This document shows, piece by piece, positions 9,197 through 63,672 of a stretch of DNA of 64,000 nucleotides; position 1 is the first letter of the stretch; each line of letters opens with the position of its first letter. Made by a program: the position numbers and the translations under genes. This DNA comes from an uncultured Candidatus Saccharibacteria bacterium (GTDB lineage Bacteria; Patescibacteriota; Minisyncoccia; UBA6257; UBA9933), in contig CAYVOL010000001.1 in the NCBI GenBank assembly GCA_964453135.1, positions 88,895 through 152,894 of the forward strand. The letters are read 5' to 3'. The notes beneath the pieces were generated by a model. It was not told the DNA's origin and made no database searches. It was given only the letters and a program-made list of their open reading frames with translations.

Positions 9197-9201
9197 TCTG
9201 A

Positions 9202-11909: not shown

Positions 11910-11911
11910 GG

Positions 11912-11949
11912 CTATTTCCATAATACCCCCATGGGGTATTTGCTGTCAA
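11912..11949 (-). promoter_or_regulatory. Sigma70-like promoter, TTGACA-N18-TATTAT, reading on the minus strand. The spacer holds a perfect palindrome ATACCCCCATGGGGTAT, a CsoR-type operator (copy 1). It drives the DoxX-like/copA operon.
   Basis: Minus-strand read: GTTGACAgcaaATACCCCATGGGGGTATTATggaaatagccATG. The arms ATACCCC/GGGGTAT match the G/C-tract inverted repeats bound by CsoR-family repressors. A second copy lies at 19525-19551. Confidence 0.55.
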
Positions 11950-12658: not shown

Positions 12659-12665
12659 GCTCTAA

Positions 12666-12851
12666 TTATATTCCTTCTTTTCTTTTTTTCGATGGACTGA
12701 CTCCCTCCGGAATATATTTGATCGGCGTTTTCTCGAATTCCTCCTTGCATGCTTTGCAGCAGAAGTAAAAGTTGTTGCCGCCGTATTTCAAGATCGCATA
12801 CTCCTGCTTTCGCCGAAGCTTCTTCCCACACACAGGATCAACGTTGAACAT
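12666..12851 (-). CDS. YHS-domain (TRASH-like) small metal-binding protein
   Basis: 'DPVCGKKL...YGGNNFYFCCKACKEEF' is the YHS-domain pattern; 61 aa. Confidence 0.7.
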   Translation of the reverse strand: MFNVDPVCGKKLRRKQEYAILKYGGNNFYFCCKACKEEFEKTPIKYIPEGVSPSKKRKEGI

Positions 12852-12863
12852 GATTTTGGTTGG

Positions 12864-13514
12864 TTAATTTTGTTTCGACCGCAATTTCGGAATAAACGAC
12901 GGCACGCGTGCCGCATAGGCGCCCCACGCGGGCCCGAATTCTTTCTGTGATTCTTTTTCTTCACTCCGTGCCAAACGAACGTACGCCACGATAAGAATCG
13001 GAAACATGGCGAGGGTGACGAGCGTCGGCCACTGAAGCAGAAACCCAAGCATGATGATGACGAAGGCGGCGTACTGCGGATGGCGGATGCGCGCATACGG
13101 GCCTATGGTTGCAAGCGCATGCTGTTTCTGCGCGGCATGCAAGACATCCCACGCCTTGGCGAGCAGTATGAAGCCGAAGCCGATCAGGATGTAGCTTGCG
13201 ATGTGGAAGGGTCCGAAATGCGGATCCCCGCCCCAGCCAAAAAGGTCTTCCAAGAGATGGCCGGAGTTATGTGCCAAAAGGTCAATGCCCGGCACGCGCT
13301 TCACTAGCCATCCCGAAACGAGATAGATCGTGAGCGGGAATCCGTACATCTCGGTGAAGAGCGCGACGATGAACGCCGAGAATCCGCCGAGCGATCGCCA
13401 GTCGCGGGCGGTTTTCGGCTTCACGAAACTGGTCGCAAACGCGATAAAGATCGCTGAGTTGATGATGACGAGCGGCCAGAGGCCGTAACCGTTTTCCATG
13501 GAAGTTAATGGCAA
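12864..13514 (-). CDS. Isoprenylcysteine carboxyl methyltransferase (ICMT/PEMT) family membrane methyltransferase
   Basis: 'GPYARIRHPQYAAFVIIMLG' signature plus multiple TM helices. Confidence 0.75.
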   Translation of the reverse strand: MPLTSMENGYGLWPLVIINSAIFIAFATSFVKPKTARDWRSLGGFSAFIVALFTEMYGFPLTIYLVSGWLVKRVPGIDLLAHNSGHLLEDLFGWGGDPHFGPFHIASYILIGFGFILLAKAWDVLHAAQKQHALATIGPYARIRHPQYAAFVIIMLGFLLQWPTLVTLAMFPILIVAYVRLARSEEKESQKEFGPAWGAYAARVPSFIPKLRSKQN

Positions 13515-13780
13515 CAGGAGTGTCCTCCGCCGTGCTTGATTGATTCGGCCTTTTTGGGATCAGCTGCCGCGTGGCTCGAATGATCTTCGGTATCTTGCGA
13601 TCCATGCCCGCGACGCATCATCCAAAGATGCGCAACAACCATCCCGCCGATAATGAGGATAAACGGCCATGATCTGACCCCTCCCCCGGCGGCGAAGATG
13701 ACGAAACCGAGGATAAGCAGGCATGGCAGCATCATCCATATCATGGATGAATTGTGCTTTTCGTTGTTGTTGTCGTTCAT
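13505..13780 (-). CDS. DUF2933-like small membrane protein with a His/Cys-rich C-terminus (start set at MNDNNNEKH)
   Basis: Single TM helix 'MIWMMLPCLLILGFVIFAAGG', 'HLWMMRRGHG...HGGGHSCCH'. The family is typical of metal-resistance loci. Family assignment is from recall. Confidence 0.5.
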   Translation of the reverse strand: MNDNNNEKHNSSMIWMMLPCLLILGFVIFAAGGGVRSWPFILIIGGMVVAHLWMMRRGHGSQDTEDHSSHAAADPKKAESIKHGGGHSCCH

Positions 13781-13929
13781 GTTTTTGAGATTTAATTTGT
13801 ATTCTACCTTTGCTATGCCGCATATTTTTCCGAATCTCCGTCGAAGTGCTCCTTGCAAGATTGCAAACAAAAGTAATTGAGCAGCCGTTAACCAGCGGAT
13901 TATCCGCGTAGCTGCAAACGCCCGTATTA

Positions 13930-14193
13930 CTACTTTTTCTCGATTAAGCTCGTGTTATGCATCCAGACGTAGTACCACGCGAAGATCCACGAGAAGGCAA
14001 ACGCGTAGAGCGCCATCAGGATGAAGCCGCCGAATGTACCCCACGTAACGCCGGGAAACGTTTCGAAAATCTGGTGGTGCAGCTGGATTCCCGCGTCAGA
14101 TCGAAGCGGCAAAAATCCTCCAAGCCAGCAGACGACAAGCACGATTTCCCCGCCCAAAACGCAAAGCCATCCGTATCGTTTGAGTGAAAGCAT
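13930..14193 (-). CDS. Small two-TM membrane protein, hypothetical
   Basis: ORF track; hydrophobic; same-strand packing within the island. Confidence 0.4.
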   Translation of the reverse strand: MLSLKRYGWLCVLGGEIVLVVCWLGGFLPLRSDAGIQLHHQIFETFPGVTWGTFGGFILMALYAFAFSWIFAWYYVWMHNTSLIEKK

Positions 14194-14202
14194 GTTGGTA
14201 AA

Positions 14203-14589
14203 TTATTTTATGTTATCGACGACCTTTTTTAATTTCTCTTCTACCTGCGCGGCGATATCGGCCAGGACGCGGTTTTTAACCATCCCCATCGCCGCAGTCG
14301 GCAGAATTGCAGATACATATGTTTTCTTGCCATCCTCGTAGACAATCACATTGCACGGCAGGAGGAGCCCAATATCCTTTTCCGTTTTCAATGCTTCGTA
14401 GGCGAGCGGCGGATTGCACGCGCCCAAGATGAGGTAATTTTCGTATTCAACATCAAGCTTCTTCTTGAGCGTCTCTTTCACGTCGATCTCCGTAAGTACG
14501 CCGAATCCTTCTTTTTGCAATTCGGATTTTATTTTCTCTACCGCTTCCTCGAACGGAAGTGAGATTTGTCTTTTATAGCCGTAGTTCAT
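14203..14589 (-). CDS. DUF302-domain protein
   Basis: 'GFGVLTEIDVKETLKKKL...YLILGACNPPLAYEAL' matches the DUF302 pattern; 128 aa. Confidence 0.7.
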   Translation of the reverse strand: MNYGYKRQISLPFEEAVEKIKSELQKEGFGVLTEIDVKETLKKKLDVEYENYLILGACNPPLAYEALKTEKDIGLLLPCNVIVYEDGKKTYVSAILPTAAMGMVKNRVLADIAAQVEEKLKKVVDNIK

Positions 14590-14619
14590 TTTATTTTTTC
14601 TATATTCTTGCTTCGGCCT

Positions 14620-15075
14620 TTAAAGCTGCCACGTAAATTTCCGCTCGCTTATCCCACCCACATCGCGGACGATGACCGTAATGGATGCGGGTTTGGGCGA
14701 AATCTGCGCAAAGACAAGCGTGCCGTTCCGGTGGTGCCCGCCGGGCGGTGGTCCTTCCCATCTGATCGGCGCAACTGTATCGCCCCGATCATCGGTGAGC
14801 GTCACGATTTTTGTCATGTCTTCATCAAGGCTTCCCGCGTGCGTATTAAGACCAACGCCGATGCTCCATTCGCCTGAAGAGAGATCTATCGGCTGGACTT
14901 GAACTTCTATTGTGCCCTGCGAATCGTATTTTGCTTCGTATACGGACGCTGAGGAATTTCCCTGCGGCAAAACAGCCGCTGGCGCCGGTTCTTTTCTTGA
15001 TCCAATGAGCGCCCAGAGAAAAAATCCGGCAGCGGCAATCACAAGAATAGTTATGATGAGATTTGATTTTTTCAT
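14620..15075 (-). CDS. Membrane-anchored or secreted hypothetical protein (151 aa)
   Basis: N-terminal signal anchor 'LIITILVIAAAGFFLWALIG'; no recognised domain. Confidence 0.45.
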   Translation of the reverse strand: MKKSNLIITILVIAAAGFFLWALIGSRKEPAPAAVLPQGNSSASVYEAKYDSQGTIEVQVQPIDLSSGEWSIGVGLNTHAGSLDEDMTKIVTLTDDRGDTVAPIRWEGPPPGGHHRNGTLVFAQISPKPASITVIVRDVGGISERKFTWQL

Positions 15076-15515
15076 TGGCTGTGTCGTTTAAATTTCATGA
15101 TTCGACTATACAGGAACGCAATGCCGCCAAGATTGAATGCGATGCCGACCCAGAAAAACTGCACTTGATAGACGCTGATGAACGACACGAAGGCCGAGAC
15201 GCCTAATACCGGCAGGATATTCACGAGATAATGGGCACAGCAGGAAATTATCGCTCCAGTCGAGGTGGCGCCAGTTACCGCAAGCAGCTTGCCGCTCGGA
15301 TCTTTGGCGCGCACCAATGCCTTGAGATAGCTATATAAGCCGACTTGGATTCCAAAACCAGACGCAAGACTTATAATGAAGTACCAAAACTGCGAGAACT
15401 GGCTCGCCGCAAATATTAGCCCCGATATCACAGACACAACCCCGAAATAAACCGCAAGGAGAATGGCTGCTGCTTCAAATCCTTTTATGATTGATGGGGC
15501 AATGATGCGATCCAT
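15072..15515 (-). CDS. Four-TM membrane protein, hypothetical (contains 'CCAHY')
   Basis: ORF track; hydrophobic; its stop overlaps the start of the upstream gene (15072/15075). Confidence 0.45.
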   Translation of the reverse strand: MDRIIAPSIIKGFEAAAILLAVYFGVVSVISGLIFAASQFSQFWYFIISLASGFGIQVGLYSYLKALVRAKDPSGKLLAVTGATSTGAIISCCAHYLVNILPVLGVSAFVSFISVYQVQFFWVGIAFNLGGIAFLYSRIMKFKRHSQ

Positions 15516-15517
15516 AG

Positions 15518-16141
15518 TTATTTCAACTTGGCGAGTTCTGTTGCGACCTTGTCGTTGTCAATCGCCATATTCGGATCGTCGAACGTATAGCGTACAATCC
15601 CCTGTTTGTCGACAAGAACGAAGCTGTGTCCAGGAAACGATCCGTAGTGCATCGAGGAAGGAACCGCGAGCATGCCGAATTTCCGCGAAACGGATTTGTC
15701 GGTATCGAAGAGCAGCGTCGCCTTTCCTAGTTCTGGCATTTTCTGCACCGCGCTCTGCCAGCTCGACGGCTGGTCTATTACCACCGAGAAGGCAACCGTG
15801 TCCGGTCCCGTAAACCGAGGATCGGTTGCAAGCGATACCATCTGGTTCCAGCACGCGGGGTAACACATGATGCCTTCGTTAAAGAATAACACCGCTTTTT
15901 TCCCTTTCAAGCTCTCATTTGAGTATTCGGTCCCGTTGCGGTCCCGGAGCGAAAATGCCGGAACAGCTTTTCCTATGAGATCGCCATAGGATCCCGAAGA
16001 GTCCGAACCGCCAGAGTGCATTGGATCGCCGGTTGTCCCTCCTGATTGCGAATTTCCGCGGCTCATGAAATAGAAGCCGCCAACGACGAATGCGATGATC
16101 GCGATGCCCGCGACAATTGTTGATGTGTTTTTATTTTTCAT
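15518..16141 (-). CDS. Thioredoxin-fold redoxin (TlpA/ResA/AhpC-TSA-like thiol-disulfide oxidoreductase), membrane-anchored
   Basis: N-terminal TM helix, 'KAVLFFNEGIMCYPACWNQ' CxxC active site, thioredoxin-fold length. Confidence 0.7.
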   Translation of the reverse strand: MKNKNTSTIVAGIAIIAFVVGGFYFMSRGNSQSGGTTGDPMHSGGSDSSGSYGDLIGKAVPAFSLRDRNGTEYSNESLKGKKAVLFFNEGIMCYPACWNQMVSLATDPRFTGPDTVAFSVVIDQPSSWQSAVQKMPELGKATLLFDTDKSVSRKFGMLAVPSSMHYGSFPGHSFVLVDKQGIVRYTFDDPNMAIDNDKVATELAKLK

Positions 16142-17043
16142 GGTTGTTGTTTTTCTTTTTTCCCGCCCGAGGCGGATCCGCCTTCGGCGGAAAGCTGGCG
16201 GATGCCGGTTGCCGCGAGCCAGGCGAAAATCACCACAATGAGAATCGCCCAGACGAACTGCGGCACGCCGCCGATGAATTGGTTAAGCCACATTTGGACT
16301 TTTGTAAGGAAGATGTTCACGTTGATCTGTAATTCGGAATGCATGGCGACATTGCCGGTCAATGCCCATATCAAGGTCAATACGCCCATAACCGCGAAGG
16401 TCGCTCCGGCGAGGAAATCCGATATCCGAAATGTTTTATCTTTTCCGAAGATGCGGACCGTGACTGGCTTCCGCGCACCAAAAAGCCGATCAGTCAAATG
16501 CGAGCGATCAAACATCAAAGAAAGAGCAAAGAGCGGCGCGACCATGCCGAGCACATATGCCAAAGTATAGACGATTCCCCAGAGGTACGACCCCGGGAGC
16601 ATAGAGAGCGCAAGCGCTCCCGCCAATACCGGCGCACAGCAGGTGGTCGCAATGCCGGAAAAAATGCCCAGCATATAAACGGACCCGATGCTTTCCTTTC
16701 CGGTAAGTTCCGGCTTCGGCCGAAACCGCTTCGGTAGCGCAAACCGGCGGCCAGTAAGAAGTGAGATGCCGAGCGCAAGTAGCACTAATCCGATGACAGT
16801 AAAGATTATCGAGTGGTAGCGGCTGAAAATCTGGCCGAGCGCCGAGATGCCAAGTCCGAGCGGCAGGAAAACCGTCATGATGCCGAGAAAGAAAATGAAT
16901 GTCATCAAAAACACCTTCCGACGCGTCCTAAAGATCGAACCGAGATACGACGGCAGAAGCACTGTAACACAACATGGGGCGAAAAGCGCCGCTACCCCTG
17001 CGATGAATGCCGCTATAAGCGATGTGCCAATGAGTATTTCCAT
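16138..17043 (-). CDS. ccdA: Cytochrome c biogenesis protein CcdA / DsbD-family transmembrane thiol-disulfide electron transporter
   Basis: 'FIAGVAALFAPCCVTVLLPSYLGS' and a second conserved Cys ('ATTCCAPVLAGAL') in a polytopic membrane protein. Confidence 0.8.
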   Translation of the reverse strand: MEILIGTSLIAAFIAGVAALFAPCCVTVLLPSYLGSIFRTRRKVFLMTFIFFLGIMTVFLPLGLGISALGQIFSRYHSIIFTVIGLVLLALGISLLTGRRFALPKRFRPKPELTGKESIGSVYMLGIFSGIATTCCAPVLAGALALSMLPGSYLWGIVYTLAYVLGMVAPLFALSLMFDRSHLTDRLFGARKPVTVRIFGKDKTFRISDFLAGATFAVMGVLTLIWALTGNVAMHSELQINVNIFLTKVQMWLNQFIGGVPQFVWAILIVVIFAWLAATGIRQLSAEGGSASGGKKEKQQP

Positions 17044-17047
17044 AGCG

Positions 17048-18079
17048 TTATACCCCGCAACCGCCTTGTTGCCTCTGCGGCTGAATTATTTGCGACTGTC
17101 CGCTGTCCACGCCGCATCCGCCTGGGCGTTGCGTCGGCGGTTCGGGAACGACAAGCGATTGAATTCTCGCGTATCCTTGTATGCTTGAGTACGAAGCTCC
17201 CAGTACTTCAGCCGGATTCACCGATGACCAATTCGTTCCTTTGCTTTGGAAGTATCGCGCAATAGTCCGGTAGGTGTCCGGAAACCAGTAGGAGTTCACG
17301 GCGAGCGCGGTTTTGTACATTTGATCTTCGCTCGCGCCCTGCGAAGCCATGAGCTCTAAGAGCCCAAGCATCGCCATGCCGTGGTTGCAATCCGGAAAGT
17401 ACGTCGAGTTACCGCAACAGGGGCGGTAGATTCCCTTGGCAACCTTTTCAACGAGCGCCTGCTGATCCTCTGTAAGCGCCACAAACTGATGCTTTGAGTA
17501 ATGACTCATGGCATTACCAACGGCAATCGTCCATCCGCCGGTTGATGCAAACCTGCCCGCTCCGCCATACTGCGGATCTTGCATTGGACCTTGCTCAAGA
17601 ATCCGGTTCTTATTGCCAAGACCGAACGCCCAAAGAAGATTCAATACCGCGCCGCTATTCTGCGGAGTAATTTTAAGGTTGCCGTTATCGGGCGAATCAA
17701 GCAACGCCTGCACATCAGAAGGCATTCCTCCGCGTTGCGCATAGAGAGCCTTGAATTGCGTTTCGTCAACTACGCCCGACTGCGCAAGTCGCTTGCCAAG
17801 ATCGCCCCAGCGCACCGGCAGCGCGACGCCTTCCTGCGGCGTAATCGCCTCGGTCAAGGCATCAGCCGATTGCGCGGAGCTCTGTTGCTGCTTCACTGCT
17901 TTGCTTCTTTCCGCCTTCAATCCGGTAGTATATATCCATGTTCCGGAAAACACGAGGACGGAAATAAGAATGCTCCACGCGAGGAAATGGTCTTTTTTCG
18001 GCTGCTCAGGATTGGAGCTTTCGTTATTTAATTCCGCGCGCTCTTCTATTATTTTATCATTGTCTTCCATGTTATTCAT
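17048..18079 (-). CDS. Hypothetical exported or membrane-anchored protein with conserved cysteines ('YRPCCGNSTYFPDCNHGMAM') and a C-terminal 'GGCGV' duplication
   Basis: ORF track; N-terminal TM segment; Cys motifs; no family recognised. Confidence 0.45.
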   Translation of the reverse strand: MNNMEDNDKIIEERAELNNESSNPEQPKKDHFLAWSILISVLVFSGTWIYTTGLKAERSKAVKQQQSSAQSADALTEAITPQEGVALPVRWGDLGKRLAQSGVVDETQFKALYAQRGGMPSDVQALLDSPDNGNLKITPQNSGAVLNLLWAFGLGNKNRILEQGPMQDPQYGGAGRFASTGGWTIAVGNAMSHYSKHQFVALTEDQQALVEKVAKGIYRPCCGNSTYFPDCNHGMAMLGLLELMASQGASEDQMYKTALAVNSYWFPDTYRTIARYFQSKGTNWSSVNPAEVLGASYSSIQGYARIQSLVVPEPPTQRPGGCGVDSGQSQIIQPQRQQGGCGV

Positions 18080-18563
18080 CGCAGCATTCGGCGAGCTTGG
18101 CCACGATGTCTTCGAGGCTCACACTGCCTTTTGCCGCCTTTTTTATAGTTTGGCCTTTGATAAGTTTTAATTTGAGTGCCCAAAAAATGGAGTACGCCTT
18201 GTAGGCGTTTTCGAATGTTTTCTTGGCTTTTTCCTTTTCTCCTTCAACATGCAATTTATTGCCGACTTCGATGAGGCGCATCGTGGCGGCCAAGAGATGC
18301 TTTGAGATACACCACGTTTCGCCCTCATGCTTCGGCATAAGCTGAGCCAAAAGTTCCTTGCGCAATTCCCGAATCTCTGCTGAAGTATCAAAGTATTCGT
18401 CTTGTTTTGTTTTAACGCCTGTAAAGAAAAAATGCTCTTCAAGGCTTATGAGATTCATAACCGCCAAGCTCAAATCCTCGGCAGTGGAAAGATCCACGCC
18501 TGCGTTTTCTTTTTGAGTTTCTATTTTTTTGAGAAATTCCTCAAGGGTCAATTTTGTTTCCAT
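18072..18563 (-). CDS. Hypothetical protein (163 aa) ending in 'LAECCDE'
   Basis: ORF track; coding-like periodicity; no domain recognised. Confidence 0.4.
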   Translation of the reverse strand: METKLTLEEFLKKIETQKENAGVDLSTAEDLSLAVMNLISLEEHFFFTGVKTKQDEYFDTSAEIRELRKELLAQLMPKHEGETWCISKHLLAATMRLIEVGNKLHVEGEKEKAKKTFENAYKAYSIFWALKLKLIKGQTIKKAAKGSVSLEDIVAKLAECCDE

Positions 18564-55993: not shown

Positions 55994-56998
55994 ATGTTAA
56001 ACAAAGACCTCCATCTTTCGCCGAAAATTTTTGAAAACAACATTGAGCAAAAACCTCTGCGCGACGGCTACGGCGAGGGTTTGATAACGGCCGGAGAAAA
56101 AAATTCCAATGTCGTTGTTTTATGCGCGGATTTAAAAGAATCCACCCGCTGCCACTGGTTTGCGGAAAAATTTCCGGAAAGATTTTTTGAGGTTGGCGTG
56201 GCGGAGCAAAATATGGCCACTATTGCCGCGGGATTGGGAGTTTCGGGAAAAATTCCCTTCATAGCCTCTTACGCGACATTTTCTCCGGGAAGAAACTGGG
56301 AACAAATCCGCACCACAGCCGCTTACAATAATTCCAATGTCAAAATCGCCGGACATCACGCCGGAATATCCACGGGCCCGGACGGCGCCACTCACCAGGC
56401 TATTGAAGACATTGCCATAATGCGGGCCATTCCCGATATAAAAGTAATAGTCCCCTGCGACGCAATAGAAGCGAGAAAAGCCACTATCGCGGCCGCGCAA
56501 ATCTGGGGACCGGTTTATTTAAGATTCGCCCGAGAAAAAACTCCGCTCATTACAACCGAAGAAACGCCTTTTACTCCGGGCAAGGCGGAAATTTTCTGGG
56601 AGTCAACAAATGGACGAAAAGCCCAAGTGGCTATTATCGCCGCTGGCCCAATTTTATACCAGACCCTATTGGCCGCCAAAGAATTGGAAAAAGAAAAAAT
56701 CGGCGCTGTTGTTATAAACTGCCACACCATAAAACCACTGGACGTTCAAAAAATAATCGAGGTAGCAAAAAAGTGCGGCGCTGTTGTGACAGCGGAAGAG
56801 CATAATGTCATCGGCGGATTGGGCGGCGCGGTGGCGGAAACGTTGGCAAAAAATTATCCCGTGCCCATGGAATTTATCGGGATGCAAGATTGCTTCGGCG
56901 AAAGCGGCCAGCCCGAAGAATTGGCAAAAAAATACGAGCTAACCAGCAATGATATTGTTAAAGCGGCGCAAAGAGCGATAAGAAGAAAAAAATTGTAG
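55994..56998 (+). CDS. Transketolase, C-terminal subunit (pyrimidine-binding plus C-terminal domains) of a split transketolase
   Basis: 'FEVGVAEQNMATIAAGL', 'GHHAGISTGPDGATHQAIEDIAIMRAIP'; 334 aa. Confidence 0.8.
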   Translation: MLNKDLHLSPKIFENNIEQKPLRDGYGEGLITAGEKNSNVVVLCADLKESTRCHWFAEKFPERFFEVGVAEQNMATIAAGLGVSGKIPFIASYATFSPGRNWEQIRTTAAYNNSNVKIAGHHAGISTGPDGATHQAIEDIAIMRAIPDIKVIVPCDAIEARKATIAAAQIWGPVYLRFAREKTPLITTEETPFTPGKAEIFWESTNGRKAQVAIIAAGPILYQTLLAAKELEKEKIGAVVINCHTIKPLDVQKIIEVAKKCGAVVTAEEHNVIGGLGGAVAETLAKNYPVPMEFIGMQDCFGESGQPEELAKKYELTSNDIVKAAQRAIRRKKL

Positions 56999-57080: not shown

Positions 57081-57206
57081 GTCATTCTAAGTCCCGTCTT
57101 TCCATTCCTCTGTCATTCTGAGTCCCGCTAAGCGGGACGAAGAATCTCATACCGCGGTAATTTCCGGGATGCTGAGCCCCCGCCGTGGCGGGAGCTCAGC
57201 ATGACC
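57081..57206. repeat. MITE/REP-like element, copy C
   Basis: GTCATTCTAAGTCCCG...GTCATTCTGAGTCCCGCTAAGCGGGACGAAGAATCTC...GATGCTGAGCCCCCGCCGTGGCGGGAGCTCAGCATGAC. Confidence 0.6.
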
Positions 57207-57365
57207 GGCATTATAAATCAGCGTTGTTAAACGACACATGACAGGTTGACTTTTACGGTAAAATCTTGTTGACTTATATTAGAACAGGGCACTGGAGATT
57301 CTTTCGGAATCCTCCACTTTATTAGCTCTTAAACCCAAACACACTCGCAGAAAGGAGAAAGCGGC

Positions 57366-57947
57366 ATGAAAAGAGACGTGAAGGAAGGACTGCTGGGAGC
57401 AGTAGTGGGAGCGGCGGCGGTTTTGATAGGAGAACAGCTCCTGAAAAAAGCCGGCGCGGCAAGCGCGTCCGGCAACGAGTTTTCCGCGGATATAGCCCGC
57501 GCGAAACTTCAAGACGCCCTTCGACGTCTTGAGGCAAAGAACAAAACCGCGTACCAACGACTGCAAGAAAGGCAAAGGCAGTCGGAGGATCCAGGAAAGT
57601 TCGCCGGTTCACTGAGCAAACTCGTCGTCGCCTTTGACGACAACCCCGAAACGCTTCTAGAAATGCTGGAATGGGCAGGGATGATGGAAGAGCAGGAGTT
57701 CAGCGCTTTTCTTGAAGGCCTAAGCTACGAGCCTTTCGTCTATGTTCTCAAGCGCGCCGGCGTCTATGCCAAAGTCATCTGGGAGAAACTTTATTCCAAT
57801 AGCCCAGATGCGCCGGGGATTCTGCAGAAGATGGATAGGGGGCTCAATCAGCAACTTGGCCCTTTCCTGGAAAGATGGGGAGCAAGCGTCCAGGTGAGAC
57901 AAGACGCCCGAAGGCAAAGGATGGATTCCAGAAGATTCGTCTGGTAA
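57366..57947 (+). CDS. Hypothetical protein, paralog A of the RRQRMDxRRFVW-tail pair (193 aa); SD AAAGGAGAAAGCGGCATG
   Basis: ORF track; strong SD; visibly GC-rich; shares 'IRAKLQD', 'AYQRL', 'LEWAGxM...EFxAFLExL', 'VLKR' and 'RRQRMDxRRFVW' with 59126..59752. Confidence 0.55.
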   Translation: MKRDVKEGLLGAVVGAAAVLIGEQLLKKAGAASASGNEFSADIARAKLQDALRRLEAKNKTAYQRLQERQRQSEDPGKFAGSLSKLVVAFDDNPETLLEMLEWAGMMEEQEFSAFLEGLSYEPFVYVLKRAGVYAKVIWEKLYSNSPDAPGILQKMDRGLNQQLGPFLERWGASVQVRQDARRQRMDSRRFVW

Positions 57948-58145
57948 TTATCGGATTTGCCGAATATTCATAAAAGGCATATAGCACTTATAATATTATA
58001 TCTTAATCATATTGTGGGAGTTTCTTACTCTTTCAGGCTTTAAAATAGCGAGCCCGCCGCTATTATCTGAAGGAGTTTTTTGTTTGTCTTGATTTTATAC
58101 CTGACACTTGTTGCTTGCTTATAGAAGATGACGCGATTCGGAAGT

Positions 58146-58277
58146 GTCATCCTGAGCCCCGTCTTTCTAATTCTTCTGTCATTCTGAGCCCGCCAACTGG
58201 CGGACGAAGAATCTCGTACTGCGACAGAACCAGGGGATTCTTCGTCCCCCGCGCCATGGCGGGGGACTCAGAATGAC
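58146..58277. repeat. MITE/REP-like element, copy D
   Basis: GTCATCCTGAGCCCCG...GTCATTCTGAGCCCGCCAACTGGCGGACGAAGAATCTC...GATTCTTCGTCCCCCGCGCCATGGCGGGGGACTCAGAATGAC. Confidence 0.6.
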
Positions 58278-58464
58278 TTTCCAAACGACGCATGCGGAAA
58301 AAGTCAACCCCGTATATAGCAAATCTGCGCAGATTTGCTATGTGTAAGGTTGACTTTTTCATTAAAATATGCTTTTATAATAGCACGTTCTTCACAATAA
58401 AATATTGGATGATTGCGAACGAATAAGAATATAGATGACAACAACCAACAATGAAAGGAGGGTG

Positions 58465-59115
58465 GCCATGGCCGACAAGCGACAACAGAGAGGACAAAGG
58501 AAGGAATTTCCGGTAAGGATTTTCCTGAAAACCTTATCCCCGCGAAAAGCGGGCGACGTCTATGAGGTGACCGCGGTGGCAACCGTGGTCAAAGGTAAGT
58601 TTCCTCAAGACGGCGTTGCTGTCCAGTTTTTCGTGGACGGCTCGCCGAAAGATTCTGTTGTCGCCGCCGAAAATGGCGGCCGGGCCCTCAAACGGCTTTT
58701 CTTTGAGAAGGAGGGGTTGTACCTGGTTGAAGCCAGAGTAAGCGACCCCAACCTTCCTGGCAACTATGTTGCCAGCGCTGAGGTCAATATCACGGCGGAG
58801 AAGAAAGATCCGCCAAAGCCGGTGGCAGATCTTCTTGTCCGGACATACCAGCTGTCTGCTGGAAAGTTCCGGTTTGAGATTCAGCCGCTGACTGAAAGCG
58901 GCAAGGTGGCTATTGGCGCGGTGGTAGAGATTTTTGACCCCGCGCTTCCTGAGCCGACACGGCAGGCGCTTGAGAAACCCACGGATACGATTTTGTATAC
59001 AGCTGAGGTTTCTCAAAAGGAGAAGTCCAAGACTATCCATTTCTGGGTGATCGGGACCAAGATTGTCAAAAACAAAACAATCTACAACGCCAATGCCGTG
59101 AAGCGTCAGGCGTAA
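58465..59115 (+). CDS. Hypothetical protein (start reassigned to MADKRQQRG after the SD GAAAGGAGGGTGGCCATG); basic N-terminus, beta-rich body
   Basis: The ORF-track frame 58435..59115 has a strong SD 7 nt before the internal ATG at 58465; GC-rich. Confidence 0.5.
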   Translation, partial: AMADKRQQRGQRKEFPVRIFLKTLSPRKAGDVYEVTAVATVVKGKFPQDGVAVQFFVDGSPKDSVVAAENGGRALKRLFFEKEGLYLVEARVSDPNLPGNYVASAEVNITAEKKDPPKPVADLLVRTYQLSAGKFRFEIQPLTESGKVAIGAVVEIFDPALPEPTRQALEKPTDTILYTAEVSQKEKSKTIHFWVIGTKIVKNKTIYNANAVKRQA

Positions 59116-59125
59116 GGAGAGAAAG

Positions 59126-59752
59126 ATGCCACTGGCGAATATTTGGGAATTCCTGGTAAGTGATATTGGCGGGGCTGTGGTGTGGGATGAAGTTCTGAAA
59201 CCCATCCTGAAAGGAGCCGTTGAAAAACACGGCGACAAGATGGGTCAAGTAGTCTACGACAAGTTTTTCACGGACAAAATCCGCGCAAAACTGCAAGACT
59301 ACTTCCGCCTCCTCAGCGAAAGAGGAGAAAGCGGAAGGGCCGCCTACCAGCGGCTAAGGGCCCGCCAGGAAAGGCATCAACGCGACAACACGGAAAATTT
59401 CTTCGTCGAAATGTTGGGGAAAGTTGTCTTGACTTTCGACGGAGAGGATCCCGAGGCCGCCCTGGACATTTTGGAATGGGCTGGAGCGATGAGCGACGAC
59501 GAGTTCAACGCCTTTCTTGAGGCGTTAAACCATGACGCGTTCTTGCAAGTCCTGAAGCGCCTCGGGGGGCACATTAGGTTTGTCTGGAGTAGAATTTACT
59601 CCAGCGACCTGAACGCGCCGGGACTCTGGCAACGCACGAATCAAAGCGTTGACCAGTGGGCAAACCCCTTCCTGAATAGGTGGGAAGGTAATTTACGCGC
59701 GCGACAACAGGAACGCCGACAGCGAATGGACGCCAGACGATTTGTCTGGTAA
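59126..59752 (+). CDS. Hypothetical protein, paralog B of the RRQRMDxRRFVW-tail pair (208 aa); SD AAGGAGAGAAAGATG; 10-nt gap to the upstream gene
   Basis: Shares the same conserved blocks as 57366..57947. Confidence 0.55.
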   Translation: MPLANIWEFLVSDIGGAVVWDEVLKPILKGAVEKHGDKMGQVVYDKFFTDKIRAKLQDYFRLLSERGESGRAAYQRLRARQERHQRDNTENFFVEMLGKVVLTFDGEDPEAALDILEWAGAMSDDEFNAFLEALNHDAFLQVLKRLGGHIRFVWSRIYSSDLNAPGLWQRTNQSVDQWANPFLNRWEGNLRARQQERRQRMDARRFVW

Positions 59753-59778
59753 ACCGATATCAAGCAAGGGAGGAAGTC

Positions 59779-60738
59779 ATGCATAGCATACTGCAAGCGT
59801 TGTGGTTTTTAGTTCAAGAAGTATGGGAGATAGCCGGCGCAGGCGTGGAGTTCACCCAGGTTATTACGAGGGTGAACAGCCACGGCCTCAGCGACCGGCA
59901 GATTTACCTCGCTGGCTTGAGACGCCTGGCGATTCTCGTTATCGTATTGCCCATCCCGCTCTTGGGAGCCAGCATTTGGCTCGGCGGGAGCTGGGCGGCA
60001 TCCGCGGGGATGATCTGGGCAGTCGCTTTTCTCTTGTTGTCTTTGGTCGCCGCCCCGATCGGGATGATTGTGGCGGCCCTGGGCAGTACAACGAGGGAGA
60101 GCGGGGAAAAATATGTGCGGGTTGTGCTATCAGTAGTATTTTCAGAACTGCTGGTAGCATTCTTCCTAGCTGTAGTGCCGATCAGAAATAATATATCGGC
60201 GCTACCCCTGCTAGCGTTGTGCGCGTTTATCATCATCCTTGCCGGAATGAAATTCCTCCGGAAAGGTTTGGTGATTGCGGCAGTGGCGGCATTTGCCCTG
60301 CTGGTGTTTTCGTTCTTCTTCCCAAGGACGTTTGAGCAGAAGATTGCTCCGTCCTTTGAGCGGTTAGATACCCAGATGGCGGCGGCGCCACCCGTGGCGA
60401 CTTCTGCGCCAGCGCAGCAACCCGTTACCGCGGCGCTTCCATCTCCGGCAAGGATTTATCCTAACTACAAGTTCGACCTTGTGGATAGGATTGAAGTTCC
60501 CCTATTGCCGGCTGGGCAAGTGCTTCCGCATGAGGCCGGGGGGTGGGTTATCCTCCCGATGGGAGCGCGCTACCGAGTAGACTACGATACGCCGGTCGTC
60601 ATTGAGTATAATGACGGCCGGAGATTCATACGCCGGCCCAATGAACCCGCGTTTGACGGGGTTCAGCCGGGCAACGGCATTTTCCGTCTTTACGGAGAAA
60701 ACGGCCAAAAAGCCGTTGTAACCATCCGCAAGGACTAG
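59779..60738 (+). CDS. Membrane protein, hypothetical: about six TM helices, a Pro/Ala-rich linker, and a C-terminal soluble domain of about 110 aa; SD GGGAGGAAGTCATG
   Basis: ORF track; hydrophobicity pattern; last gene before a canonical terminator. Confidence 0.5.
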   Translation: MHSILQALWFLVQEVWEIAGAGVEFTQVITRVNSHGLSDRQIYLAGLRRLAILVIVLPIPLLGASIWLGGSWAASAGMIWAVAFLLLSLVAAPIGMIVAALGSTTRESGEKYVRVVLSVVFSELLVAFFLAVVPIRNNISALPLLALCAFIIILAGMKFLRKGLVIAAVAAFALLVFSFFFPRTFEQKIAPSFERLDTQMAAAPPVATSAPAQQPVTAALPSPARIYPNYKFDLVDRIEVPLLPAGQVLPHEAGGWVILPMGARYRVDYDTPVVIEYNDGRRFIRRPNEPAFDGVQPGNGIFRLYGENGQKAVVTIRKD

Positions 60739-60769
60739 TTCTTTTTATCGGAAAGGAGGTGATTAATAA

Positions 60770-60810
60770 CCCCCATTGTTCGCGAGAGCAATGGGGGCGT
60801 TTTTATTTTA
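60770..60810 (+). terminator. Rho-independent terminator (stem CCCCCATTG/CAATGGGGG, then CGTTTTTATTTT)
   Basis: Read from the sequence, 32 nt after the stop at 60738. Confidence 0.65.
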
Positions 60811-60837
60811 AGCCAGACAAGTTTTGTTTATTTAAAA

Positions 60838-60882
60838 AGATTCATCGCCCCCCGCCATGGCGGGGCGGGGCTCGGAATGACG
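60838..60882. repeat. MITE/REP-like element, single half-module (copy E)
   Basis: GATTCATCGCCCCCCGCCATGGCGGGGCGGGGCTCGGAATGAC. Confidence 0.5.
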
Positions 60883-60938: not shown

Positions 60939-61334
60939 TTACACGCCTCTTAAAACGCTATCAACAAAATCAGGCAAACCGTAAGCCACGAGTCCTATGG
61001 CTATGGCAATCACTGCCCAAAGCAAGGCCTGCTTCGCCTTATCATAATTTTTAGGGTCTGTCGCGCCAAACAAAAAAAGATAGGCGGCGTAAAAAACAAA
61101 ACCAATGGCGAAAATCCAGAAAGCGGTGGCAAACCATTTTAAAAGATTGCGAAAAAGACCCAAAACGCTTCCGCTTCCCCCTTCAACTTGAATAATAGGG
61201 CTATTTCCGGGGCCGGGAGGGCTCACTTGAGTAACACTAACATTATCAGCAAAAGAATGGCGCGGCGCTACTATGAAATACGCGGCTGTAATAACGATAG
61301 AAAAAATGAAAAACAAAGAAATAAGATTTTTCAT
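60939..61334 (-). CDS. TrbC/VirB2-like small two-TM 'pilin' family protein, paralog 1 (131 aa)
   Basis: Signal/TM helix, then 'LKWFATAFWIFAIGFVFYAAYLFLFGATDPKNYDKAKQALLWAVIAIAIGLVAYGLP', the pattern of the type IV secretion pilin family that is frequent in Patescibacteria (family assignment from recall). Confidence 0.5.
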   Translation of the reverse strand: MKNLISLFFIFSIVITAAYFIVAPRHSFADNVSVTQVSPPGPGNSPIIQVEGGSGSVLGLFRNLLKWFATAFWIFAIGFVFYAAYLFLFGATDPKNYDKAKQALLWAVIAIAIGLVAYGLPDFVDSVLRGV

Positions 61335-61351: not shown

Positions 61352-61462
61352 GTCATTCCGAGCCTAGCCACGGCGGGGTGAGGAATCTTGACAGATTCTT
61401 CGCCCGCCTCCGCCCAGCCACAACGGGGTCATAGTGGGGGCGGAGGCGGAACTCAGAATGAC
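61352..61462. repeat. MITE/REP-like element, copy F
   Basis: GTCATTCCGAGCCTAGCCACGGCGGGGTGAGGAATCTTGACAGATTCTTCGCCCGCCTCCGCCCAGCCACAACGGGGTCATAGTGGGGGCGGAGGCGGAACTCAGAATGAC. Confidence 0.6.
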
Positions 61463-61476
61463 AATTTACCTTAATA

Positions 61477-61791
61477 TTATGGATTAAGAATGCTCTGAAT
61501 AAGCGCTGGCAAGCCGTAAACTAAAATTCCAACTGCCATTGCGATAATGGTGTAAAGCAATGCCCTTTTTGCCTCATCGTATTTTTTCGCATCCTGAGCG
61601 CTGAACAAAAAAAGATAGGCGGCGTAAAAAGCAAAGCCGATGGCAAAAATCCAAAAAGCGGTGGCAAACCATTTTTGGAATCGGTCTAAAATCGTAATGA
61701 CCTGCTGCAAATTTTGCGGCCCTCCGCCATCGGCTAAGGCGACAGAAAAAGGAATTATTAAAAGTGATACGGCAACAAAAAATTGAGACAT
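61477..61791 (-). CDS. TrbC/VirB2-like pilin family protein, paralog 2 (104 aa)
   Basis: 'FQKWFATAFWIFAIGFAFYAAYLFLFSAQDAKKYDEAKRALLYTIIAMAVGILVYGLP'. It shares a roughly 70-nt near-identical DNA stretch with paralog 1. Confidence 0.5.
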   Translation of the reverse strand: MSQFFVAVSLLIIPFSVALADGGGPQNLQQVITILDRFQKWFATAFWIFAIGFAFYAAYLFLFSAQDAKKYDEAKRALLYTIIAMAVGILVYGLPALIQSILNP

Positions 61792-61919: not shown

Positions 61920-62297
61920 TTATTGCCCTTTAAGAAACTGATCCACCAAGAAAGGCAACCCGTAAGCCATTAAACCTATGATTATGGCGATAACGGCGTA
62001 AATCAAAGCGGTCTTTCCTTTCTGATGGCCGTCTTTGGAATGCGAAGCGAACAAAAACAGGTAAGCGGCGTAGAAGATATACCCCACGGCAAAAATCCAG
62101 AAAACAGTGGCAATCCATTTCAGAATAGTTCTGAGAAGTTCTAATGTGCTATTCACACTGCCTATTTTATATCCGGGATTTGTTAGTGGAGCCGTTACCG
62201 GATTTCCTATATTAGCCGTTTCAGCCGCGGCTCCCAAAGGAAAAACCGAAACCGCCGTTAAAGCCAGCAGCAAAACAAAAAATATCTTATTTCTCAT
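61920..62297 (-). CDS. TrbC/VirB2-like pilin family protein, paralog 3 (125 aa)
   Basis: 'LKWIATVFWIFAVGYIFYAAYLFLFASHSKDGHQKGKTALIYAVIAIIIGLMAYGLP'. Confidence 0.5.
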   Translation of the reverse strand: MRNKIFFVLLLALTAVSVFPLGAAAETANIGNPVTAPLTNPGYKIGSVNSTLELLRTILKWIATVFWIFAVGYIFYAAYLFLFASHSKDGHQKGKTALIYAVIAIIIGLMAYGLPFLVDQFLKGQ

Positions 62298-62366: not shown

Positions 62367-62678
62367 TTAAACTGTCAGCAATTCTCTGATAATTGCCACG
62401 ATTCCGTAAGCGCACCAGATAGCGGCGTAGCCGATAATCGCCCATTTCAGAGCGTTTGTTCCCTTTTTATATTCTTCGGGTTTGCCTCGGGAAAGAAGCA
62501 TCTGAAAAGCCGCGTAAATAACCATTATAACAAACACAAGAGTAAAAAGACCCATACCGGTGCTGATTACTTTCTGCAAGATATCATTCAAATCATTCCT
62601 GCCAAGAGGATTATAAATTCCGCTGCCCGTGCCGCCTTCCGTTTGAGCTAAAACTTTTTGAATGAGAAGATTTAACAT
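62367..62678 (-). CDS. TrbC/VirB2-like pilin family protein, divergent paralog 4 (103 aa)
   Basis: 'GMGLFTLVFVIMVIYAAFQMLLSRGKPEEYKKGTNALKWAIIGYAAIWCAYGIVAII' shows the same architecture of two TM helices with a short charged loop. Confidence 0.4.
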   Translation of the reverse strand: MLNLLIQKVLAQTEGGTGSGIYNPLGRNDLNDILQKVISTGMGLFTLVFVIMVIYAAFQMLLSRGKPEEYKKGTNALKWAIIGYAAIWCAYGIVAIIRELLTV

Positions 62679-62735: not shown

Positions 62736-62863
62736 GTCATTCTGAGCCCTCCGCCGTGGCGGGGGCGAAGAATCTCTTGATTTTACATTAGCACGAGATC
62801 CTTCGCTTCGCTCAGGATGACATGATGGATTCTTCTCCGCCGGCTGACGAATTCAGGATGACG
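62736..62863. repeat. MITE/REP-like element, copy G
   Basis: GTCATTCTGAGCCCTCCGCCGTGGCGGGGGCGAAGAATCTC...GAGATCCTTCGCTTCGCTCAGGATGAC...GATTCTTCTCCGCCGGCTGACGAATTCAGGATGAC. Confidence 0.6.
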
Positions 62864-62884: not shown

Positions 62885-63298
62885 TCATTGACAATTAATA
62901 CTGTTCCATGGTCCTAATCCTGGCCCGAGAACAGCCGGACCGCCGCCCAATGACGCGCCCATTAAAATTTTAATCGTAGTATCAATTATGAGCCAAGCGG
63001 CTAAAATAATTACAAAGCCGACAAGCGCCGTGCGAATGGTTTTTAACCCGCTTTGATATAAGGGCGGGTTGGCTCCGGCCACCAACATTTTAATTCCTCC
63101 CCAGACCATAAACGCCACAGCCAAAGAAGCGGCGATTCCTAAAACAAAATTATAAACATTTTGAAACAGCTTAAAAAAATTACAGAAGGTGCACATCGCT
63201 CCGCTTCCTCCGGGCCCGCAAGGCACCAAGGCGGCGCTGGCGGCGTTGACTGTTAAAAAGAAAAATAAAATTGCGGCGACAGTAAAAACGAAATTCAT
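62885..63298 (-). CDS. TrbC/VirB2-like pilin family protein, divergent paralog 5 (start moved to MNFVFTVAAILFF so that it does not run through the MITE); Cys-containing N-terminal region
   Basis: 'LAVAFMVWGGIKMLVAGANPPLYQSGLKTIRTALVGFVIILAAWLIIDTTIKIL'. The N-terminal 79 codons in the ORF track are the translated MITE copy H. Confidence 0.45.
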   Translation of the reverse strand: MNFVFTVAAILFFFLTVNAASAALVPCGPGGSGAMCTFCNFFKLFQNVYNFVLGIAASLAVAFMVWGGIKMLVAGANPPLYQSGLKTIRTALVGFVIILAAWLIIDTTIKILMGASLGGGPAVLGPGLGPWNSINCQ

Positions 63299-63359
63299 TA
63301 TGTAATTTAGTTGTAAGATTCCGTAGCGTTGTTTACGCTTTTCATCGTTGTTTTTGATT

Positions 63360-63489
63360 GTCATTCTGAACGTTTTCGTCATCCTTCGCCCCCCGCCATG
63401 GCGGGGGGCGAAGGATCTCGCAAGATTCTTCGCTACGTTTAGAATGGCAAATGGATTCTTCGTCCGCCAGTTGGCGGACTCAGAATGAC
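63360..63489. repeat. MITE/REP-like element, copy H
   Basis: GTCATTCTGAACGTTTTCGTCATCCTTCGCCCCCCGCCATGGCGGGGGGCGAAGGATCTC...GATTCTTCGTCCGCCAGTTGGCGGACTCAGAATGAC. Confidence 0.6.
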
Positions 63490-63672
63490 AACGGGGCGTC
63501 AGAAATGTAATGGTCAATGTTTGAAATACAAACAACACTCTGATTTCTTACAAATTTAGTTTATCATTTTGCGCGCAATAGGGCAATCCCTTAGTTGACT
63601 TTTAGCTTCTGGCTTTTAGCTTTTAGTTTTAATTCTACATTCTAAATCCTATATTCTATCCAATCTAGTGAT

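What the first reader, a model, noticed from the sequence alone, without database searches (positions are those of the whole stretch)
57081..60882. GC-rich, MITE-bracketed cassette of four co-directional genes of unknown function with strong SD sites: candidate undescribed accessory system
Between MITE copies C and E lie four genes: paralog A (57366..57947); MITE copy D; a basic, beta-rich protein (58465..59115); paralog B (59126..59752, 10-nt gap); and a six-TM membrane protein with a C-terminal soluble domain of about 110 aa (59779..60738, 26-nt gap), closed by a canonical terminator. All four genes are visibly far more GC-rich than the host backbone and use near-consensus AAGGAGG-type SD sites. 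None matches a family I recognise. The tight three-gene operon of soluble protein, paralog and membrane protein, together with a detached second paralog copy, is typical of mobile defence, toxin-immunity or surface-modification modules. It sits directly beside the tandem pilin-like array.
Basis: partly seen in the sequence, partly recalled or inferred. Interest (0 to 1): 0.85.

Follow-up and report, generated by a model that had tools for sequence, protein, structure and literature searches.

The report
Variable envelope operon beside pilin array
Four real genes of unknown function in a candidate-phyla-radiation (Patescibacteria) genome are a rare, fast-changing three-protein membrane module, plus one extra gene copy, that in related bacteria almost always lies next to the VirB2-type pilin gene cluster; it therefore looks more like a partner of that surface apparatus than a mobile defence cassette.

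Summary
There are four co-directional genes with strong ribosome-binding sites, two of them paralogs (39% identity). A 12-bp-stem terminator closes the set. GC is 53-56% against a window gene mean of 46%, and palindromic repeat copies lie on both sides.

The repeats are not cassette boundaries. They sit in almost every intergenic gap from 57 to 63.5 kb, including between pilin genes, and are absent from homologous loci.

The core is a conserved module: an Ig-like protein (Big_1/CarboxypepD_reg-like), a novel helical protein, and a polytopic membrane protein with a variable C-terminal beta domain. The helical family has only about 23 cluster representatives among 1.84 billion proteins. None is in phage, plasmid or viral collections, and there are no Pfam, NCBIfam or PADLOC hits.

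In 7 of 8 independent loci with enough downstream sequence, the module is convergent with VirB2-like (PF18895) pilin genes, while the upstream neighbours differ. Against a close relative, pilins and gene 1 keep 53-68% identity, but genes 2 and 3 fall to 24-28%. The membrane protein is a mosaic of shuffled N- and C-terminal parts.

Best reading: an undescribed, hypervariable envelope module functionally tied to the Patescibacterial VirB2-type pilus locus. The mechanism is inferred, not shown.

The parts
57081..57205 (.). Palindromic MITE/REP-like repeat, copy C (full element, inverted ends GTCATTCTrAG...CTCAGCATGAC)
57366..57947 (+). Paralog A: detached second copy of the helical family gene (193 aa, pI 9.1), with its own SD and promoter-like region
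   Evidence: (P0005)
58146..58277 (.). Repeat copy D (full element; folds as a long hairpin, z -5.7). It is followed by a TTGACT...TATAAT-like stretch shared with the region upstream of paralog A
58468..59115 (+). Gene 1: basic 215-aa protein with two beta-sandwich (Big_1-like and CarboxypepD_reg-like) domains; no signal peptide or TM segment
59126..59752 (+). Gene 2 (paralog B): 208-aa all-helical protein of a new family (motif RAELL..F.R.L..AS.NL.RRQ..RQ..Y.PGDE..V.LL.KLY.ALD..F.WLG...DEEFD..LEFL.HD...Q.LK)
59779..60738 (+). Gene 3: 319-aa polytopic membrane protein (5-6 TM), Pro/Ala-rich linker and a C-terminal beta domain of about 95 aa that is swapped among lineages
60770..60806 (+). Intrinsic-terminator-like hairpin (12-bp stem) plus T run, between the convergent module and the pilin array
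60850..60881 (.). Repeat copy E (half element only)
60939..61334 (-). VirB2-like pilin 1 (PF18895 T4SS_pilin), convergent with the module
61352..61462 (.). Repeat element between pilin genes 1 and 2
61477..61791 (-). VirB2-like pilin 2 (PF18895)
61920..62297 (-). VirB2-like pilin 3 (PF18895)
62367..62678 (-). VirB2-like pilin 4 (PF18895)
62736..62821 (.). Repeat element between pilin genes 4 and 5
62885..63298 (-). VirB2-like pilin 5 (PF18895); the true start is probably MNFVF at 63298, and the longer ORF to 63538 reads through a repeat element
63360..63489 (.). Repeat element upstream of pilin 5

Best explanation
The locus is a lineage-restricted module of Paceibacteria-like Patescibacteria (CPR), genetically coupled to the array of VirB2-type pilin genes.

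Shown:
- Three genes recur together in the same order: an Ig-like protein, a novel helical protein and a polytopic membrane protein with a C-terminal beta domain. The last two often have overlapping stop and start codons.
- The module ends convergently, 50-200 nt from a PF18895 pilin array, while its upstream neighbours differ from genome to genome.
- Genes 2 and 3 diverge far faster than gene 1 and the pilins. Gene 3 is a mosaic whose transmembrane part and C-terminal domain have been reassorted between lineages.
- The window genome carries an extra, detached copy of gene 2 (paralog A).

Inferred:
- The three proteins form a cytoplasmic-membrane complex.
- The variable C-terminal domain of gene 3 is probably displayed outside the cell on a Pro/Ala-rich linker.
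- The signal-less Ig-like and helical proteins dock on the cytoplasmic side.
- The complex works with the VirB2-type pilus/T4SS-related surface apparatus, either as an assembly or anchoring platform or as a specificity (adhesion) factor for contact with the host cell. Diversifying selection or recombination acts on it as it does on the pilins.

The palindromic repeats are genome-specific intergenic insertions, not the borders of a mobile element.
For: Family and rarity.
- A profile of A+B searched against 1.84 billion representatives gives 24 hits at E <= 1e-3. About 23 are real and all are 189-255 aa.
- Alignment shows one coherent motif set.

Module conservation (HMM scan of all fetched loci; gene tables).
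- Helical gene followed by membrane gene in 11 of 11 loci with room, plus a divergent pair in L017.
- Ig-like gene upstream in 12 loci.
- Stop/start overlap between genes 2 and 3 in 6 of 10 loci.

Pilin linkage.
- Convergent PF18895-like genes follow directly in the window, L002, L005, L009, L015, L018 and L020; L017 is the exception.
- Upstream genes differ: transketolase, secDF, xer, an HlyD-like/ABC exporter cluster, secE, PaaX/Cas2-like, PAP2.

Rate contrast, window against L002.
- Pilins 1-5 are colinear at 54-68% identity and gene 1 is at 53%.
- Gene 2 is at 24% (E = 1) and gene 3 at 28% over 123 aa (E = 1e-3).

Mosaicism.
- Transmembrane-part clusters are {window, L015, L020}, {L005, L014, L016} and {L012, L018}.
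- C-tail clusters are {window, L005}, {L002, L015} and {L012, L018}.
- The window and L005 tails are 51% identical.

Topology hints.
- K/R counts with 5 TM helices favour N-in/C-out, read from the sequence.
- The tails in L009 and L017 are Cys-rich.

Not mobile.
- No phage, plasmid or IMG/VR relatives.
- No repeats in homologous loci.

Literature. VirB2-like arrays of 2-11 genes are widespread in Patescibacteria and essential in Ca. Southlakia epibionticum (PMC12102498, PMC10633639, PMC12857230).
Against: - No experiment or expression data exist, and the convergent orientation means the module is not co-transcribed with the pilins.
- The linkage rests on only 8 informative loci, all from one part of the CPR, so inherited gene order could contribute.
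- L017 has the helical/membrane pair without pilins.
- No virB4 or other T4SS core gene lies in the 64-kb window. None of the five ORFs of 600 aa or more is VirB4.
- Topology is unsettled. My crude predictor gave mixed results, and basic residues follow the last TM helix.
- The single-sequence model of gene 3 is unusable (pLDDT 57).
- Ig-like and helical proteins without export signals do not obviously belong to a surface structure.
- The module's GC exceeds its flanks in most lineages. This is unexplained and could mean recurrent horizontal replacement.
Confidence: 0.5

Rival explanations
1. Polymorphic toxin/immunity-like or defence cassette. The membrane protein carries an exchangeable C-terminal effector domain. 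The helical protein is its cognate immunity or regulator, and paralog A is an orphan extra copy. The pilin neighbourhood is incidental, or is merely a recombination-prone region.
For: - The gene 3 C-terminal domain is swapped between lineages on a different N-terminal scaffold.
- Genes 2 and 3 diverge extremely between close relatives.
- There is an extra detached copy of gene 2 in the window and a chimeric remnant in L012.
- Composition is atypical.
Against: - No PADLOC hit above noise.
- No toxin or other domain in five different C-tails.
- No gene follows the variable domain: a terminator comes next, then convergent pilins.
- Similarity of the helical genes tracks neither the C-tail type nor the transmembrane type.
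- No trafficking domain of known polymorphic toxins was found.
- The position next to pilins is conserved.
- Absent from phages and plasmids.
Confidence: 0.15
2. Highly diverged core parts of the Patescibacterial T4SS itself. Gene 3 is a VirB6/PrgH-like channel subunit of the 'extended VirB6' type with a C-proximal hydrophilic domain, and genes 1 and 2 are lineage-specific structural partners.
For: - Gene 3 has five or more hydrophobic helices plus a C-terminal hydrophilic domain, as described for extended VirB6 proteins (PMC12857230).
- It lies directly next to VirB2-like pilins.
- VirB6 homologues are scarce in some Patescibacteria classes, which has been attributed to extreme divergence (PMC12102498).
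Against: - No match to TrbL/VirB6 or any Pfam model at E <= 10 in five family members.
- No virB4 in the window.
- A core channel subunit is not expected to be replaced or shuffled between close relatives.
- The family is very rare, about 23 clusters at 50% identity, whereas the T4SS is widespread in the phylum.
Confidence: 0.15
3. No functional link. These are lineage-specific genes of unrelated or unknown role that stay beside the pilin array only by inherited gene order. The GC excess reflects amino-acid bias or high expression.
For: - All carriers appear to be related Paceibacteria-like CPR.
- L005 and L009 also share the genes beyond the pilins, a solute-binding-like protein and gyrA.
- The convergent orientation gives no co-transcription.
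- L017 lacks the pilins.
Against: - The upstream flank differs in every independent locus while the junction between module and pilins persists.
- Carrier genomes range from about 31% to 46% GC, and their module proteins share only 20-50% identity. Gene order is preserved over a long divergence.
Confidence: 0.15

Closest known systems
VirB2-like pilin arrays / T4SS loci of Patescibacteria (Quinonero-Coronel et al. 2025, PMC12102498; Wang et al. 2023, PMC10633639)
   Same: The neighbouring five genes are PF18895 T4SS_pilin members in a tandem, sequence-divergent array. The paper describes 441 such arrays. The organisms are of the same type, and the arrays are thought to vary for host adaptation.
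   Different: The three-gene module is not among the T4SS components catalogued there (VirB1/2/3/4/6/8, TrsD, PrgF and others), and no text in that paper mentions it. No virB4 lies within the window.
VirB6 / 'extended VirB6' polytopic T4SS subunits (PF04610 TrbL; PrgH, TraL, ConG)
   Same: Polytopic membrane protein of about 260-470 aa with five or more hydrophobic helices and a C-proximal hydrophilic domain, encoded beside pilin genes.
   Different: No detectable sequence similarity. It is hypervariable and mosaic between close relatives. It is not in a virB4 cluster.
Polymorphic toxin-immunity loci (CDI, Rhs, LXG/MafB types) with orphan modules
   Same: A variable C-terminal domain is exchanged on a more conserved scaffold. 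The adjacent small protein diverges quickly. Extra or remnant copies lie nearby.
   Different: No toxin fold or trafficking domain was found. No immunity gene lies downstream of the variable end. The scaffold is an integral membrane protein. The position beside the pilin array is fixed.
Intimin/invasin-type bacterial Ig-like (Big_1) and CarboxypepD_reg beta-sandwich domains
   Same: The gene 1 family profile matches intimin Big domains (E = 1.8e-9). Members hit Big_1 (4 of 6) and CarboxypepD_reg (2 of 6).
   Different: Gene 1 is a small two-domain protein with no signal peptide, anchor or passenger architecture. The window protein alone does not reach any Pfam threshold.
MITE / REP-like palindromic intergenic repeats
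   Same: Elements of about 100-135 nt with 11-nt inverted ends (GTCATTCTGAG...CTCAGAATGAC) and strong hairpin potential, in many copies and only in intergenic DNA.
   Different: No target-site duplications or cognate transposase were identified. They do not delimit the module: they also separate the pilin genes and are absent from homologous loci.

Membership tests
VirB6/TrbL T4SS membrane subunit | Match to the TrbL/VirB6 profile (PF04610) or PrgH-type profiles | tested here: not met
   hmmscan of five gene 3 family members against Pfam at E <= 10 lists no TrbL/VirB6. CONJScan PrgH profiles and profile-profile comparison were not available.
VirB6/TrbL T4SS membrane subunit | Polytopic protein with five or more hydrophobic helices, optionally with a C-proximal hydrophilic domain | tested here: met
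   Five hydrophobic segments, one 30 aa long, then a hydrophilic tail of about 135 aa. The same architecture is seen in 10 homologs.
VirB6/TrbL T4SS membrane subunit | Encoded in a cluster with virB4 and other T4SS genes | tested here: not met
   All window ORFs of 600 aa or more are GyrB, an ABC transporter, a P-type ATPase, BipA and ClpB. Only VirB2-like pilins are adjacent.
Known anti-phage defence systems (PADLOC-DB) | Significant match of at least one protein to a defence-system model | tested here: not met
   The only hit is paralog A against ZorA at E = 0.007, 13 bits. The others have none.
Polymorphic toxin-immunity system | Variable C-terminal domain exchanged between lineages on a conserved N-terminal scaffold | tested here: met
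   Clusters of the transmembrane part and the C-tail are incongruent. The window tail is 51% identical to that of distant L005 but unrelated to that of close relative L002.
Polymorphic toxin-immunity system | Recognisable toxin domain and trafficking/pre-toxin domain | tested here: not met
   No Pfam or PDB match for five C-tails or for the whole proteins.
Polymorphic toxin-immunity system | Cognate immunity gene immediately downstream of the toxin end | tested here: not met
   Gene 3 is followed by a terminator and convergent pilin genes in the window and 6 other loci.
MITE-bounded mobile cassette (composite element) | Short non-coding elements with terminal inverted repeats, in multiple copies | tested here: met
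   17 core matches against 0.63 expected. Full copies align. Hairpin z = -5.7.
MITE-bounded mobile cassette (composite element) | Repeats mark the ends of the transferred unit, and homologous cassettes elsewhere carry the same ends or empty sites | tested here: not met
   Elements also lie inside the cassette and between pilin genes. None is present in the loci from other genomes; the only match among the 16 loci fetched by then is in L001, a contig of the window's own genome. Copy E is a half element.
MITE-bounded mobile cassette (composite element) | Target-site duplications and a related autonomous transposase | not tested
   Flanks were not examined for duplications. No transposase was seen among the window ORFs scanned.
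Bacterial Ig-like domain proteins (Big_1, PF02369) | Profile match to Big_1 or a solved Big domain | tested here: met
   The family profile matches intimin 6tpl at E = 1.8e-9. Four of 6 members hit Big_1, best 2.8e-6. The window protein alone is sub-threshold.
T4SS_pilin (PF18895), neighbouring genes | Score above the Pfam gathering threshold | tested here: met
   All five neighbours score 27.9-48 bits against a cut-off of 26.6.

The most novel reading that the evidence does not exclude
The module is a previously unrecognised specificity system of the Patescibacterial VirB2-type pilus. A membrane platform (gene 3) displays an exchangeable C-terminal domain that recognises the host cell surface. 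The helical and Ig-like proteins couple it from the cytoplasmic side to pilus assembly or secretion. Reassortment of its parts, together with pilin variation, sets or shifts the host range of these episymbionts.
Probability: 0.2. Interest if true: 0.8.

Novelty: new variant of a known kind. Interest (0 to 1): 0.55.

Why it matters
The role of the T4SS-related pilus of Patescibacteria is an open question. In the one species tested, the apparatus and its pilin array are essential, but what it transports or binds is unknown (PMC10633639, PMC11665869). A conserved yet hypervariable membrane module welded to the pilin array gives concrete new candidates for partners, anchors or host-specificity factors of that apparatus in the largest CPR class. 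It also adds two protein families with no relatives among described families. Even if the functional link fails, the locus is a clear case of modular domain shuffling and rapid replacement in ultra-small genomes.

Tried and rejected
Searches that found little or nothing:
- Word-indexed homology searches for genes 2 and 3 found only the proteins themselves. The search for gene 1 found one homolog.
- Pfam, PHROGs, PADLOC and NCBIfam scans of the four proteins found nothing significant.
- Pfam scans of all family members of genes 2 and 3 gave no recurrent hit.
- The helical-family profile against PDB sequences gave nothing.
- tblastn against phages and plasmids and a scan of IMG/VR found no relatives.

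Structure work:
- The afdb50 library was not available.
The single-sequence model is too poor to search (pLDDT 57).
- My hydropathy and positive-inside script gave inconsistent topologies across homologs, so I do not rely on it.

Ideas considered and rejected:
- Prophage structural Ig-like protein for gene 1: no phage hits and a fixed chromosomal position.
- Assembly artefact: rejected by independent contigs.

Full report
**1. What is in the sequence**

Four + strand ORFs lie at 57366-57947 (A, 193 aa), 58468-59115 (gene 1, 215 aa), 59126-59752 (B, or gene 2, 208 aa) and 59779-60738 (gene 3, 319 aa). Each ATG is preceded by a strong Shine-Dalgarno-like site. The gaps are 10 and 26 nt. A terminator with a 12-bp stem and a T run follows at 60770-60797. 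A and B are paralogs: 39% identity, E = 3e-42.

The genes have 53-56% GC, against 46.1 +/- 4.6% for 71 window ORFs. Tetranucleotide distance is z = 2.1. Only five of 122 windows are as deviant, and all of those lie in a second GC-rich block at 9-18 kb.

A contig from a second sequencing run is 100% identical across transketolase, A, gene 1 and the start of B. The order is therefore not an assembly artefact.

**2. The repeats**

The core GTCATTCTGAG occurs 17 times within one mismatch, against 0.63 expected. Full elements are about 100-135 nt with inverted ends, and copy D folds into a long hairpin (z = -5.7). Copies C and D are full elements; E is a half element.

Thirteen of the 17 core matches lie between 57.0 and 63.5 kb. 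They sit in nearly every intergenic spacer, including those between pilin genes (61352-61462, 62736-62821, 63360-63489). None occurs in the loci fetched from other genomes; the only match is in L001, a contig of the window's own genome. They are genome-specific intergenic insertions, not the ends of a cassette.

The regions upstream of A and of gene 1 share the element plus a TTGACT...TATAAT-like stretch.

**3. The proteins**

*No named family.* None of the four reaches a Pfam, PHROG, PADLOC or NCBIfam threshold.

*Gene 1.*
- Its family (six sequences, alignment A5) matches intimin Big domains at E = 1.8e-9.
- Members hit Big_1 (4 of 6) and CarboxypepD_reg (2 of 6). It is therefore a two-beta-sandwich protein.
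- It is basic (pI 9.6) and has no signal peptide or TM segment.

*Gene 2 and paralog A.*
- A profile of A+B scored against 1.84 billion representatives returns 24 proteins at E <= 1e-3.
- About 23 are genuine, all 189-255 aa with one shared motif set.
- With 22 sequences AlphaFold gives an all-helical model (pLDDT 77) with a poorly ordered, Gly/Ala-rich amphipathic N-terminus.

*Gene 3.*
- It has five hydrophobic segments, one of them 30 aa long, then a Pro/Ala-rich linker and a beta-rich C-terminal domain of about 95 aa.
- Counting K/R with five TM helices favours N-in/C-out. The tails of two homologs are Cys-rich. Both points hint at an external domain.
- My crude predictor was inconsistent, and the single-sequence model is unusable.
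- There is no match to TrbL/VirB6 or any other Pfam model in five members.
- Five C-tails gave no Pfam hit, and the window-type tail gave no PDB hit.

**4. Context elsewhere**

Loci came from exact look-ups and from genome and metagenome scans. They were scanned with HMMs of the three families and of the pilins.

| Feature | Result |
|---|---|
| Helical gene followed by membrane gene | 11 of 11 loci with room, plus a divergent pair in L017 |
| Stop/start overlap between genes 2 and 3 | 6 of 10 loci |
| Ig-like gene directly upstream | 12 loci; absent in L005, L020 and L017; chimeric in L012 |
| Convergent PF18895-like pilin genes 50-200 nt downstream | 7 of 8 independent loci with enough sequence: window, L002, L005, L009, L015, L018, L020; not L017 |

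The upstream neighbour differs in each locus: transketolase, secDF, xer, an HlyD-like/ABC exporter cluster, secE, PaaX/Cas2-like, PAP2. The only named genome is 'Candidatus Paceibacterota bacterium'. The window's five neighbours all pass the PF18895 threshold. No relatives exist in phage, plasmid or IMG/VR collections.

**5. Evolutionary pattern**

L002 is a fairly close relative. Against it, the five pilins are colinear at 54-68% identity and gene 1 is at 53%. Gene 2 is only 24% identical (E = 1), and gene 3 is 28% identical over 123 aa (E = 1e-3).

Across ten loci the parts of gene 3 cluster incongruently:

| Part of gene 3 | Clusters |
|---|---|
| Transmembrane part | {window, L015, L020}, {L005, L014, L016}, {L012, L018} |
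| C-terminal tail | {window, L005}, {L002, L015}, {L012, L018} |

The window tail is 51% identical to that of distant L005. Gene 3 is thus a mosaic with an exchangeable C-terminal domain. Helical-gene similarity follows neither part.

The module is GC-richer than its flanks in L002 (55-57.5% against 43.7%), L005, L014 and L016, only slightly so in L009 and L015. In L002 the adjacent pilins are host-like (42-45%). High GC is therefore a trait of the module across lineages, not proof of a recent arrival in this genome. I cannot explain it. Recurrent replacement, GC-biased conversion at a recombination hot spot, or codon selection are all possible.

**6. Interpretation**

*Shown.* This is a rare, lineage-restricted three-gene module plus one extra gene 2 copy. 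It is physically coupled to VirB2-type pilin arrays through genome rearrangements, and two of its components are hypervariable and shuffled.

*Inferred.* The three proteins form a membrane complex that functions with the pilus/T4SS-related surface apparatus, as an assembly or anchoring platform or as a host-contact specificity factor. Like the pilins, it would be under diversifying pressure. I give this 0.5.

*Rivals*, each about 0.15:
- A polymorphic toxin/immunity-like or defence cassette. It fits the shuffling and the orphan copy. It lacks a toxin domain, a downstream immunity gene and a PADLOC hit.
- An extremely diverged VirB6-like core subunit with partners. It fits the architecture and the neighbourhood. 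It lacks a profile match and a nearby virB4, and the gene is too variable and too rare.
- Mere inherited synteny.

**7. Comparison with what is known**

VirB2-like arrays of 2-11 divergent pilin genes are documented in 383 Patescibacteria assemblies. The array is essential in Ca. Southlakia epibionticum (PMC12102498, PMC10633639, PMC12857230). The role of the apparatus is described as unknown (PMC11665869). The module found here is not among the components catalogued in PMC12102498, and I found no text mentioning it.

I therefore rate it a new variant of a known kind: a Patescibacterial VirB2-pilin locus with novel, undescribed accessory families. It is not a categorically new system, because no function has been demonstrated.

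**8. Limits**

- There are only eight informative loci, and most contigs are short.
- The word-indexed protein searches are insensitive for gene 3, because hydrophobic words saturate the candidate list.
- No profile-profile search against Pfam or PDB and no AFDB fold search were available.
- Topology and interactions are untested.
- The taxonomic placement of the window itself is inferred from its relatives and its gene content.

Noticed in passing
window 9200-18100: A second GC-rich block (gene GC 49-56%, GC3 up to 0.70) is the most compositionally deviant part of the window. It encodes a heavy-metal P-type ATPase with an HMBD domain, a lycopene-cyclase-domain protein, a DsbD-like membrane protein and several unassigned ORFs. 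It may be horizontally acquired.
   Followed up: partly
L012 133-630 (metagenome contig Ga0210057_1069714): A chimeric ORF lies upstream of the helical gene. Its first ~70 aa resemble the N-terminus of the helical family, fused to the C-terminal CarboxypepD_reg-like half of the Ig-like gene 1. It looks like a recombination remnant and is further evidence that this locus is rearranged.
   Followed up: partly
window 62885-63538 (- strand): The 217-aa ORF for pilin 5 owes its N-terminal 80 aa to read-through of a palindromic repeat element (63360-63489). The real pilin most likely starts at MNFVF (63298), giving 137 aa like its homologs in L005 and L009.
   Followed up: yes
window 57244-57285 and 58346-58385: The regions upstream of paralog A and of gene 1 share the repeat element and also an AGGTTGACTTTT...TAAAAT...TTATA(A/T)TAG stretch. 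Either the repeat carries or abuts a promoter, or the duplication that made paralog A included the upstream region.
   Followed up: partly
L002 2588-4604; L005 9962-11682; L014; L016: The module is GC-richer than its flanks in several unrelated carrier genomes (for example 55-57.5% against 43.7% in L002), while the adjacent pilin genes are host-like. The cause is unknown.
   Followed up: partly
L005 13766-17507 and L009 11478-16553: In two distant carriers the pilin array is followed by the same genes: a large solute-binding-like lipoprotein, then gyrA. The L009 GyrA ORF (940 aa, still open at the locus edge) carries N-terminal sequence with no counterpart in L005 GyrA, possibly an intein-like insertion; this was read by eye and not tested.
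   Followed up: no
L002 5498-6549 (- strand): The otherwise colinear pilin array of the close relative contains two non-pilin genes (84 aa and 247 aa, no Pfam hit on record) that the window array lacks.
   Followed up: no
window 55994-56998: Transketolase is encoded as a separate C-terminal half (pyrimidine-binding plus C-terminal domains only). No N-terminal half lies immediately upstream, where a beta-CASP RNase gene sits. Split transketolase genes are said to be common in small genomes.
   Followed up: no
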